This document shows, piece by piece, positions 25,002-28,000 of a DNA stretch of 64,000 bases. This DNA is from Malacoraja senta. Its lineage: Eukaryota. Each line of letters begins with the position of its first letter. Position 1 is the stretch's first letter. Location of the stretch: positions 17,112,001-17,176,000 of the forward strand of contig CM075977.1 in the NCBI GenBank assembly GCA_038087875.1, read 5' to 3'. A program made the position numbers.

Positions 25002-28000
25002 TCATAGTGGAATAGGTGACATTTCGGGTCGAGACCCTTCTTCAGACTGACAGTCAAAGGAAAGGGAAACGGGAAATAGGCATATCTTCCATTCATTTGT
25101 CCTTAGTACCGTCTATATCTCTTATTCCTCCCTACCCCTGACCCTGTCTGAAGAAGGGTCTCAACCCGAAATGTCACCTATGCCGCTTTATGATCGTTGC
25201 TTTCGTCCGTCTGTCCGCTCGTTCGCTCGCCCTTGGATTAAGTAGCGCAGGATAAAGCTGCGAATTCATGCACAGGATGGAAACTGGAAACTGAAAACTA
25301 GGGGAACGCTGTCCCCCTGCGTACCCCCCCCCCCCCCATTTCCATCACTGTTCGTGGATGTCTCGTAGCGGCTCGTACGAGTCAATAGTAACAATTTTTT
25401 TCATCATGAGTATTTTTTTACTCGTGGACATTTTTCACAGTGTTGGAAAAAGCGTCACGAGTTTACCAGATTTCCCGTACGAGCCGCTACGAGACATCCA
25501 CGAGCTCCTACGGACCAGCTACGGACATTCTCCGAGTTCGAATCAGGGGAAAACCCGGGAGAACTCTTGAATTACCTCGTACAGTGGGACAGGCCCTTTA
25601 AACTCTTCCCTTTGTTCTCAACATTCCAAATGTCTTTGTGAGCCAGGGTTGTGTTGGCTTTCTTTTAATCTCCTTCATTTGTATCTTCTTCCAAATGCGT
25701 GGCCACAGCCTTCCCATTTTCACACATGCTACTCACATTTTGTCCCCCGACCGGATAAATATGTTCCCGTCGCATTCAACTTATATTTCTCAAGTTATTA
25801 ACCTTTTAAAAACAGCTTCAAAATATTAAAGTTTTCAACGTTCTAATTTTGAAGAAAAAAATGCCGACTGACGTCACAATAAATTCACACGCTCCGGGCG
25901 CGAGGGCACTCCAGCATTCCAACCCGCTCGGCCTGGCTGGGATCCCTCGCCCTCTCCATCTCTACCCTCCCTCCCTCCCCCCGACTCTACCGTCTTTACT
26001 CTAACCGCCCCCCCTCCTCTCTACTCCATCTCCCTCTCTACCCCCTCCCCATCCAGCACTCCAACCCACTCGGCCCTGCTGGGACCCGTTCGGCCGCACA
26101 CACAAGGAGTGCTCCAAGCACTGGATTCGGGACGAGGAGGCCCATCGTGGAGAGTTACACCCCAGCCCTTTGAGAAGGACCGATTCTTCAGGCCCGACTT
26201 CACCTCCCTCGATGTGCTCACCTTCGCTGGCAGCGGCATCCCAGCTGGCATCAATATCTCCAACGACGACGACATCCGTCACATGGTGGGGTTTAAAAAC
26301 GTCTCGCTCTGTAATGGCCTACTACACCTAGAAGGAGAAACTCACCTTCCTGGAGGATCACGACAAGGACGTGTACATCAAGTGGAAAGGCCCCTCCTTC
26401 CAGGTCGGCCTTCACAAGCTGCAGGGTCACGGCAGCGGGAAGCTCTTCGTCTAGGACAGGGATCTCCAAACTATGGCCCGCGGGCCACATCCAGCCAGGC
26501 ACATGATTTTATCTGGCCCGCACCAAGCTCAGTGCAGAACGAAGCATGTGTCTGTTAGGCGTCGAGTCGATGCGAGTCAGGTAGCTGCTCTTAGTGTTTG
26601 TTACGGGGTAGGTCCCTCGAATTGTCGGAGCCGAGACATCACAGGGCCGCCGTGAAGAAGGGTGCAATGATAGGGGGGGGGGTTCGGCAGCGGTGGTCAG
26701 AATGGGTCGGCGGCGAGTTATAAAGTGAAATCGTTCCTCTCTGCCTCTCTCTTTCCTCTCTGCCTATCTCTCTCCTGTCTGCCTATCTCCTCTCTGCCTC
26801 TCTCTCTCCTCTCTGCCTCTCACCTCCCTGCCTCTCTCTCCTCTGCCTTTCCCTCTCCTCTCTGCCTCTCTCTTTACTCTCTGCCTATCCTCTCTGCCTC
26901 TGCCAGTCTCTGTCTCTGCCTCTCTCTTTCTCTGCCTCTCTCTCTCTCTGCCTCTCCTTTCTCTCCCTCTCTATCTGCCTCTCTCTCCTCTCTGCATCTC
27001 TCTCCTCTGCCTCTCTCCCTCTGCCTCTCTCTGCCTCTCTATCTGTCCCTCTCTCTGCCTCTATCTCTCTCTCTGCACTCTCTCTGCCCTCTCTCTGTCT
27101 GCCTCTCTCTCTCTGCCCCTCTCTCTCTGCCTCTCACTCTCAGCCCCCCTCCCTCTCTACCCCCCACTCCCTCTCTACCCCCACTCCCTCTCTACCACCA
27201 CTCCCTCTCTAACCCCCTCCCTCTCTAGCGAGTGATGAGTAATGGGACCTATGGGTGAGTGGTGGAGTATTGCGTTTGGGGACCAACCCTGCCATGTGAC
27301 GCCGTTCGCCTCCCCTATCCCTCACTCTCTACCCGCCCTCTCTCCCTCTCTACCCCCTACTCCCTACCTTTACCCTCCCTCTCTACCCCCCTCACCCTCT
27401 CCCTCTCTACCCCCTCCCTCTCTACCCCCCTCCCTCTCCCTCTCTAGCTGCGCCTGCGAAGTTGGGGGCTATGCGTGAGTGGATAGGGCGGGGGATGGGG
27501 GAAAAGGAGCGAATTAATAATATTAATATAATATCAAGGGAGGGGGGTTAGTGTGTGTGTGTGTGTGTGATGCCGAATTCCGCCCCCCCCCCCAACCGTG
27601 CGTTGGTGTGATGGGACCCAACGGGTCCCACTTGGTCTAGTATCAACTTAAAACTAATTGGTGATGCTGCTGGTCTGCACCAGCGAGCCCTTCTTCACTG
27701 TTGACTTAGCTGTTGTTGCTGCTCACCTTGTGGCCCCGACAGGACGCACTTTCTTCAGGTTGCGGCTACCGACAGGATGCACCCGGTCACCGTGCGGCTC
27801 CCTCCCTTCTCACCCATTGCTTTGTCCATTCCACCGCCTCCTCCTCCTCCCCCCGCAGTCATCGATACTGTCCATGGTGGAGTATGTCGACGACTCCAGG
27901 GAAGAAGTAGGAGATAGCGGCAGTGGAAGGGGGAGGAGAGGCTGAGTGAACAAAGTGACAGGTCAACAGGAAGAAGCAGCAGCAGGTGGGAGGGGAGGGA

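What the first reader, a model, noticed from the sequence alone, without database searches (positions are those of the whole stretch)
26092..26456. Intronless, internally deleted DPP3 fragment carried in a Helitron
Seen: three DPP3 segments in order with no intron; the stretch between PIVESY and FEKD is deleted, there are two TAG stops, and HELLGH has become HKLQGH. The fragment ends exactly where a hAT-Charlie left end begins. From recollection the human region spans several exons, so continuity suggests an RNA-derived intermediate (a retrocopy captured by the Helitron) or an intron-poor parent gene. That part is inference.
Basis: partly seen in the sequence, partly recalled or inferred. Interest (0 to 1): 0.65.

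Follow-up and report, generated by a model that had tools for sequence, protein, structure and literature searches.

The report
Decayed spliced DPP3 fragment, skate-like genome
This is a broken, non-coding leftover of the host's own DPP3 peptidase gene that seems to have been copied from spliced RNA and now sits among transposon debris, possibly inside a Helitron; it is an ordinary kind of genomic fossil.

Summary
Window 26101-26454 (+) is a DPP3 (peptidase M49) remnant: Pfam PF03571 at E 3.9e-24 and 1.2e-9, and human DPP3 residues 360-413 and 421-462 in the PDB. It covers residues 293-311 and 360-463 of a skate DPP3. It has a +1 frameshift, deletions of 143, 11 and 6 nt, two TAG stops, and HELLGH changed to HKLQGH.

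In every informative piece it is closest to skate DPP3, so the source is the host gene. An intron-poor foreign gene is unlikely.

Gene models of other vertebrates imply exon junctions in the S310 codon and at 330/331, 432/433 and 463/464, and possibly at 394/395. The fragment runs unbroken across S310, 394/395 and 432/433. A spliced (RNA-derived) origin is therefore likely, but it is inferred, because the host's own gene could not be examined.

Carriage by a Helitron is unproven. A canonical-looking 3' end lies 1.18 kb downstream at 27612-27640, but that pattern appears in 9 of 60 shuffled windows. No 5' end and no sibling copy could be found.

Helitron-borne retrogene fragments are already described in bats (PMC4224331). 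Interest is low to moderate.

The parts
26101..26136 (+). DPP3 remnant, frame 1: [12 protein letters not shown], matching residues 293-304 of skate DPP3 P0003
   Evidence: 11/12 identical to the skate and both rays; 9/11 or fewer to the other 11 named sequences
26137..26140 (+). Four bases where the G305 codon should be: a net +1 frameshift
   Evidence: Frames, sequence; inference from codon positions
26141..26158 (+). DPP3 remnant, frame 2: PIVESY (residues 306-311). It runs unbroken across the inferred exon junction in the S310 codon (26153-26155)
   Evidence: junction inferred from P0026 and P0065
26159..26160 (+). Break point of a 143-nt internal deletion (residues 312-359). The deleted stretch includes the inferred junction 330/331
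   Evidence: junction from P0073, P0046 and P0124
26160..26315 (+). DPP3 remnant, frame 3: residues 360-411. It is unbroken across the possible junction N394|Y395 (26264|26265)
   Evidence: junction suggested only by the C-terminal end of P0313
26316..26316 (+). Single base left where residues 412-415 (12 nt) should be: an 11-nt deletion and frameshift
   Evidence: inference from codon positions
26317..26454 (+). DPP3 remnant, frame 1: residues 416-463. TAG at 26329-26331 (Q420). Unbroken across the inferred junction K432|D433 (26367|26368). 6-nt deletion between 26400 and 26401. HKLQGH at 26413-26430. TAG at 26452-26454 (Q463)
   Evidence: junction from P0101 and P0103
26457..26489 (+). hAT-like terminal sequence CAGGGATCTCC..., containing a 14-nt palindrome at 26474-26487. 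No matching right end and no repeated 8-bp site in the window
   Evidence: The hAT-Charlie label is recalled, not tested
25910..25947 (+). 38-nt unit, followed here by a CCCTCTCTACCCC-type array
   Evidence: 34/38 identical to 26052-26091
26052..26091 (+). Second copy of the 38-nt unit, followed within 10 nt by the DPP3 remnant instead of the array
26736..27446 (+). CT-rich tandem arrays: CTCTGCCTCTC type up to about 27158, CTCCCTCTCTACCCC type at 27133-27227 and 27319-27446. The latter type also occurs upstream at 25944-26054
27612..27640 (+). Helitron-type 3' terminus: 8-bp stem, 3-nt loop, 6-nt spacer, CTAG, then T at 27641
   Evidence: -11.9 kcal/mol, z -2.72; a pattern of this class occurs in 9 of 60 shuffles

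Best explanation
The stretch is a dead fragment of a spliced copy of the host's own DPP3 mRNA. The host looks like a skate. The cDNA-like piece covers residues about 293-463 and later suffered a 143-nt internal deletion, three small indels, two CAG-to-TAG changes and loss of the catalytic Glu of the HEXXGH motif.

It lies about 11 kb downstream of a ZFPM-like exon, inside a block of array-bearing repetitive DNA, and abuts a hAT-like end on its 3' side. That repetitive block ends 1.18 kb further on in a Helitron-type 3' terminus, so the fragment is probably a passenger of a non-autonomous Helitron. This would match bat Helitrons that picked up fragments of pre-existing retrogenes.

It encodes no working protein. 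No function is indicated.

Shown: DPP3 origin, skate-like source, the lesions, and continuity of the sequence.
Inferred: the positions of the host's introns, the RNA step, and Helitron carriage.
For: DPP3 identity:
- Pfam PF03571 at E 3.9e-24 and 1.2e-9.
- PDB human DPP3 residues 360-413 and 421-462.
- tblastn collinear pieces.

Host origin:
- Of the 14 named DPP3s compared (of the 105 named full-length hits), the skate P0003 is best in pieces C (46/54) and D (36/42).
- It ties with the two rays in piece A (11/12).
- In one search the named top hit is Rhinoraja longicauda (85%).

Exon junctions, inferred from the 105 named full-length hits and 5 named short models:
- 463/464: P0124 and P0090 read on into sequence starting V-R and V-S, as expected for GT donors. 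P0026, P0030, P0047, P0099 and P0101 also break there.
- 330/331: P0073, P0046 and P0124.
- 432/433: P0101 and P0103 both diverge right after K432.
- S310 codon: P0026 has a gap at 297-310. In P0065 an unrelated stretch replaces residues 310-330; 19 of its residues are codon-compatible with a +1 reading of the normal exon.
- 394/395: P0313 ends there.

The window DNA is continuous across S310, 394/395 and 432/433.

Repeat context:
- The fragment starts within 10 nt of a 38-nt unit that elsewhere precedes the CT array.
- The same array type lies on both sides.
- A hairpin-CTAG-T terminus lies on the same strand.

Precedent: passages of PMC4224331 describe Helitron-borne retrogene fragments.
Against: - The host's own DPP3 gene structure was not seen. 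The junction positions are borrowed from teleost, holostean, coelacanth, shark and primate gene models, some of them of poor quality.
- The two best-supported junctions are not crossed by retained sequence.
- The fragment has no poly(A) tail and no target-site duplication, so the usual retrocopy hallmarks are missing.
- The Helitron 3' pattern is not statistically rare (9 of 60 shuffles have one).
- No 5' TC end was identified, there is no Rep/helicase ORF among the 15 large ORFs scanned, and there is no second copy in the window.
- No short protein in the large database carries the same frame-shifted flanks. That database may simply not hold such ORFs.
Confidence: 0.5

Rival explanations
1. 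This is an ordinary LINE-mediated processed pseudogene of DPP3, later truncated and riddled by other insertions. It has no connection to a Helitron, and the hairpin-CTAG motif 1.18 kb downstream is either a chance pattern or a separate element.
For: - The fragment is continuous across the inferred junctions.
- LINE reverse transcriptase and endonuclease ORFs are abundant in the window.
- A Helitron-end-like pattern appears in 9 of 60 shuffles.
- No 5' end and no sibling copy were found.
- DPP3 retrocopy-like predicted proteins exist in other vertebrates: P0202 from Scotinomys and P0242 from Nasalis.
Against: - There is no poly(A) tract or target-site duplication.
- The fragment is embedded between like repeat units and arrays that continue to the Helitron-type end. 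This fits a passenger within one composite element better than an independent insertion.
Confidence: 0.3
2. This is a DNA-level capture or duplication of genomic DPP3. Either the retained parts lie within single exons of the host gene, or the introns were removed by later deletions.
For: - The 143-nt cDNA-equivalent deletion spans junction 330/331, so a genomic deletion could have taken an intron with it.
- Similarity ends within 0-3 nt of the exon end at Q463. This is what a copy limited to one exon would look like.
- The Saguinus model P0124 is collinear over residues 330-463.
Against: - Two independent models diverge exactly after K432 (P0101, P0103), and two mark a junction in the S310 codon (P0026, P0065). 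The window has no extra sequence at either place.
- After the Q463 codon the window reads GA, not the GT of a donor site.
Confidence: 0.07
3. This is a retrocopy of an aberrant chimeric transcript in which the DPP3 exon ending at Q463 was spliced onto an exonised hAT-like element. On this reading the hAT-like end is part of the copied RNA, not a later insertion.
For: - DPP3 similarity stops 0-3 nt after junction 463/464, exactly where the hAT-like sequence starts.
- The window holds no right end and no downstream repeat of the 8-bp site that an insertion would leave.
Against: - There is no poly(A) signal or tail downstream.
- The coincidence can arise by chance, given about five junctions in 520 nt.
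- Nothing tests this reading directly.
Confidence: 0.05

Closest known systems
Helibat elements carrying retrogene fragments in vespertilionid bats, such as the TACC3 retrogene piece in HelibatN22 and HelibatN541 (Thomas et al. 2014, PMC4224331; passages read)
   Same: A multi-exon gene fragment without introns inside a non-autonomous rolling-circle element, without poly(A) or target-site duplication, and decayed.
   Different: Here the Helitron is not demonstrated: there is a 3' end-like motif only, and no copies or empty sites. The host is a cartilaginous fish, and the passenger is DPP3. No paper in the searched library mentions both Helitron and DPP3.
Processed pseudogenes (LINE-mediated retrocopies) of DPP3 in mammals, as suggested by the decayed predicted proteins P0202 (Scotinomys teguina) and P0242 (Nasalis larvatus)
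   Same: Collinear, degenerate DPP3 sequence with altered zinc-binding motifs (HKLLGH in P0202, HELLGY in P0242).
   Different: Those are longer and were annotated as proteins. That they are retrocopies is my inference, not tested. The window fragment is shorter, frame-shifted, and sits within repeat arrays.
DNA-level exon capture by plant Helitrons such as those of maize (recalled, no call)
   Same: Host gene pieces carried as passengers near the 3' end of the element.
   Different: Those captures keep introns and flanking genomic sequence. This fragment shows none at the inferred junctions.

Membership tests
Peptidase M49 / DPP3 (as a working enzyme) | Significant match to the family profile | tested here: met
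   PF03571 at E 3.9e-24 (profile positions 211-263) and 1.2e-9 (269-309)
Peptidase M49 / DPP3 (as a working enzyme) | Intact HEXXGH zinc-binding and catalytic motif | tested here: not met
   HKLQGH at 26413-26430; the Glu is replaced by Lys
Peptidase M49 / DPP3 (as a working enzyme) | Uninterrupted full-length reading frame, about 727 aa in skate | tested here: not met
   Only residues 293-311 and 360-463 are present, with three frame changes and two TAG stops. tblastn finds no other DPP3 piece in the window
Helitron (non-autonomous) | 3' terminus: GC-rich hairpin a few nt before CTRR, inserted 5' of a T | tested here: met
   27612-27640: 8-bp stem, 3-nt loop, CTAG, then T at 27641. The pattern class occurs in 9 of 60 shuffles, so this is weak on its own
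Helitron (non-autonomous) | 5' terminus TC following a host A | tested here: inconclusive
   Many candidate A|TC sites lie upstream. A neighbouring repeat ends at 25603, followed by TC but preceded by C. No comparator copy is available
Helitron (non-autonomous) | Multiple genomic copies with shared ends and empty sites | not testable with these tools
   No second copy in the window. No eukaryotic genome collection was open. The prokaryote collection gave 0 matches
Processed pseudogene / retrocopy | Several exons joined without introns | tested here: inconclusive
   The fragment is continuous across junctions inferred from other vertebrates' models: S310, 394/395 and 432/433. The host gene itself was not seen
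Processed pseudogene / retrocopy | 3' poly(A) tract and flanking target-site duplication | tested here: not met
   The fragment stops at residue 463 against the hAT-like sequence. No A tract and no flanking direct repeat were seen
hAT transposon | Two terminal inverted repeats flanked by an 8-bp target-site duplication | tested here: not met
   Only one end-like sequence is present. The 8-mer before it recurs on the + strand only at its own position. Family assignment to Charlie is recalled

The most novel reading that the evidence does not exclude
A cartilaginous-fish Helitron family picks up and spreads spliced host cDNA. Here the cargo is a DPP3 exon run that ends at an exon junction fused to a hAT-like sequence, that is, a copy of an aberrant chimeric transcript. 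If sibling copies exist, this would extend RNA-derived gene capture by rolling-circle transposons from bats to the base of the jawed vertebrates. It would also give a marked, datable family for studying how such captures happen.
Probability: 0.12. Interest if true: 0.45.

Novelty: new member of a known kind. Interest (0 to 1): 0.25.

Why it matters
If confirmed, it would be one more example of a transposon-associated retrogene fragment, in a lineage (skates) where the one literature search made here showed no study of Helitron gene capture among the 12 papers listed of 1,435. It has no sign of function and does not open a new question. Its main use is as an annotation caveat: DPP3-like hits in this genome can be pseudogene debris.

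Tried and rejected
- **Second copy in the window.** A self-BLAST of 24277-28200 against the window and a sensitive BLAST of 25500-26730 against 27230-29500 found only short SINE-like motifs, a 107-nt repeat and the CT arrays.
- **Sibling copies as proteins.** The frame-3 ORF P0001 was searched against proteins of 66-212 aa. None of the 120 listed hits (of 496) covers more than 65% of the query, so none carries the frame-shifted flanks. This is uninformative, because such ORFs may not be in the database.
- **hAT-like ORF 26455-26652 against 1.84 billion representatives.** There were 4 weak multi-stretch hits (best E 6.2e-6), which say nothing about a transposon family.
- **Helitron 3' 29-mer in genome contigs.** There were 0 matches, as expected for a prokaryote collection.
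- **Pfam on 18 further ORFs in 24452-28158.** No other gene fragment was found.
- **Rfam on the whole window.** No family matched.
- **Literature.** Helitron plus DPP3 gave 0 papers. DPP3 plus HELLGH plus exon gave 0 papers. Helitron, skate and elasmobranch (any two of three terms) listed nothing useful among the 12 shown of 1,435.
- **The 143-nt deletion as exon skipping.** Rejected. Its left edge lies 4-6 nt inside the exon that starts in the S310 codon, and no model shows a junction at 359/360.
- **The 6-nt deletion as a splice variant.** Rejected. It lies inside the exon for residues 433-463.

Full report
**What the window is.** The window has three N runs (18141-18278, 24141-24276, 49504-49665), which were left untouched. 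Its content looks like a cartilaginous fish. The DPP3 remnant is closest to a skate protein. The window also carries a ZFPM-like exon and several LINE reverse transcriptase and endonuclease ORFs. Nothing suggested human sequence.

**The observation.** Three-frame translation of 26092-26456 and tblastn with the named skate DPP3 P0003, from Rhinoraja longicauda, show four collinear pieces on the + strand:

| Window | Frame | Residues of P0003 | Identity |
|---|---|---|---|
| 26101-26136 | 1 | 293-304 | 11/12 |
| 26141-26158 | 2 | 306-311 | 6/6 |
| 26160-26321 | 3 | 360-413 | 46/54 |
| 26314-26463 | 1 | 415-466 | 40/52 |

- Pfam PF03571 (Peptidase_M49) matches the two longer pieces at E 3.9e-24 and 1.2e-9.
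- The PDB search aligns the two longer pieces to human DPP3 residues 360-413 (E 1.6e-19) and 421-462 (E 4.2e-15 for 3fvy_A, which numbers them 423-464; 8.1e-15 to 8.2e-15 for the chains numbered 421-462).
- The two short pieces gave no Pfam hit on their own. Their assignment rests on collinearity and on the near-exact match to batoid DPP3.

The pieces were searched one at a time.

**Lesions.** These are read from the sequence against the frames.
- Four bases (26137-26140) stand in place of the G305 codon.
- One base (26159) is left between the Y311 and P360 codons. This means 143 nt of coding sequence (residues 312-359) are missing.
- One base (26316) is left for residues 412-415, an 11-nt deletion.
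- Six nt (E444-V445) are missing between 26400 and 26401.
- TAG stands at Q420 (26329-26331) and at Q463 (26452-26454).
- The zinc-binding HELLGH reads HKLQGH (26413-26430).

tblastn finds no further DPP3 piece anywhere in the window. The other rows have E of 0.45 or more.

**Source of the fragment.** I compared each piece separately with 14 named DPP3 proteins, chosen from the 105 named full-length hits.
- The skate is best for piece C (46/54) and piece D (36/42).
- It ties with the two rays for piece A (11/12, against 9/11 for sharks and 6-8/11 for the other eight).
- Piece B is uninformative.

The source is therefore a skate-lineage DPP3, that is, the host's own gene. An intron-poor gene from elsewhere is unlikely.

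**Is it intronless?** The host's DPP3 locus could not be examined. I therefore inferred exon junctions from the places where named isoforms or gene models of other vertebrates break away from the canonical protein. The data were the 105 named sequences, after dropping 14 unnamed rows (alignment, inspection), and the five named short models looked at (P0124, P0202, P0152; P0313, P0242).

| Junction | Evidence |
|---|---|
| Q463\|D464 | Saguinus P0124 and Latimeria P0090 run on into unrelated sequence beginning V-R and V-S, as GT donors would translate. P0026, P0030, P0047, P0099 and P0101 also break there. |
| 330/331 | Aldrovandia P0073 starts there. Bagarius P0046 lacks the seven preceding residues. 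Similarity in P0124 starts there, after a proline-rich run that looks like a translated polypyrimidine tract. |
| K432\|D433 | Trout P0101 and bowfin P0103 both diverge immediately after K432, both with V. |
| S310 codon | Labeo P0026 lacks residues 297-310. In Prochilodus P0065 an unrelated stretch of 24 residues replaces residues 310-330. Nineteen of them are codon-compatible with a +1 reading of the normal YIGF...EFEG exon. |
| N394\|Y395 | Only the C-terminal end of the sawshark partial model P0313 supports it. |

The window DNA is continuous at S310 (26153-26155), at 26264|26265 and at 26367|26368. Junction 330/331 lies inside the 143-nt deletion. Similarity ends 0-3 nt beyond 463/464, where the window reads GA rather than a GT donor.

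A spliced template is thus the best reading. It rests on borrowed junction positions, some of them from weak gene models.

**Two coincidences remain unexplained.**
- The left edge of the 143-nt deletion lies 4-6 nt after the S310 junction.
- The 3' end of the fragment lies 0-3 nt after the 463/464 junction.

The deletion is not simple exon skipping, because neither edge sits on an inferred junction.

**Context.**
- Immediately after the fragment, 26457-26489 reads CAGGGATCTCCAAACTATGGCCCGCGGGCCACA. No library was available to test it.
- The window has no inverted partner within 3 mismatches. The 8 bp preceding it do not recur downstream. The translated ORF finds nothing meaningful among 1.84 billion representatives.
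- Upstream, a 38-nt unit at 26052-26091 is 34/38 identical to 25910-25947. The first copy is followed by a CTCCCTCTCTACCCC-type array, and the second by the DPP3 piece.
- The same array type recurs at 27133-27446. This suggests that the block from about 26098 to about 26735 sits inside one array-bearing element.

**The Helitron-type end.**
- That element ends at 27612-27640 in TGGGACCC-AAC-GGGTCCCA, six bases, then CTAG, followed by T.
- The hairpin folds at -11.9 kcal/mol, z -2.72.
- This fits a Helitron 3' end, but it is weak alone. A GC-rich hairpin of at least 7 bp lying 3-12 nt before CTRR-T occurs in 9 of 60 first-order shuffles of the window.
- No 5' end could be fixed. A neighbouring repeat, shared with 17872-17968, ends at 25603 and is followed by TC, but this is only suggestive.
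- None of the 15 large ORFs scanned is a Rep or helicase.
- No other gene fragment is detectable by Pfam in 24452-28158.
- No second copy lies in the window.

**Comparison with what is known.** Passages of Thomas et al. 2014 (PMC4224331) describe bat Helitrons that either received LINE-mediated retrogene insertions or captured pieces of pre-existing retrogenes. One example is a TACC3 fragment spanning four exons, without poly(A) or target-site duplication. That paper uses 'multiple exons devoid of introns' as its criterion. The present case would be of the second type. No paper in the searched library mentions both Helitron and DPP3.

**Verdict.**
- Certain: this is a real, decayed DPP3 fragment of host origin.
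- Likely, at about 0.8: it derives from a spliced template.
- Possible, at about 0.5-0.6: a Helitron carries it.
- No function is indicated.

It is a new instance of a known kind, of low to moderate interest.

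Noticed in passing
window 11794-14319 (+): An 841-aa open frame with ZFPM2-like CCHC zinc fingers (PF25445, E 1.2e-36). It looks like the large terminal exon of a ZFPM/FOG-type gene. The DPP3 remnant lies about 11 kb downstream of it on the same strand.
   Followed up: partly
window 19292-22990 (+); also 40687-45149 (-), 32428-33507 (+), 58741-60802 (-): LINE remnants with endonuclease and reverse-transcriptase domains. The first is preceded by a GDSL-esterase-like ORF. They show that retrotransposition machinery has been abundant around this locus.
   Followed up: partly
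window 25352-25379 and 25476-25503; 25497-25603 vs 17872-17968: A perfect 28-nt inverted repeat with 96 nt between the arms. It is part of a repeat whose end (...GGCCCTTTAAAC) is shared by a second copy next to the N run at 18141. The element type is unknown.
   Followed up: partly
window 25009-25048, 25146-25184, 29029-29068 and at least 8 further sites: A motif of about 40 nt (GGTGACATTTCGGGTCGAGACCCTTCTTCAGAC) recurs on both strands across the window. It often forms long hairpins, for example 28951-29103 with 68-nt arms that are 93% complementary. It is probably a SINE or MITE family.
   Followed up: no
proteins P0202 (Scotinomys teguina) and P0242 (Nasalis larvatus): Predicted 'hypothetical proteins' that look like decayed DPP3 copies, with altered zinc motifs (HKLLGH, HELLGY) and internal gaps. 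They are probably annotated processed pseudogenes in mammals.
   Followed up: no
window 25860-25900: A TGACGTCA (CRE-like) palindrome and an AT-rich stretch sit just upstream of the GC-rich unit that precedes the DPP3 remnant. Whether this is a captured promoter piece was not tested.
   Followed up: no
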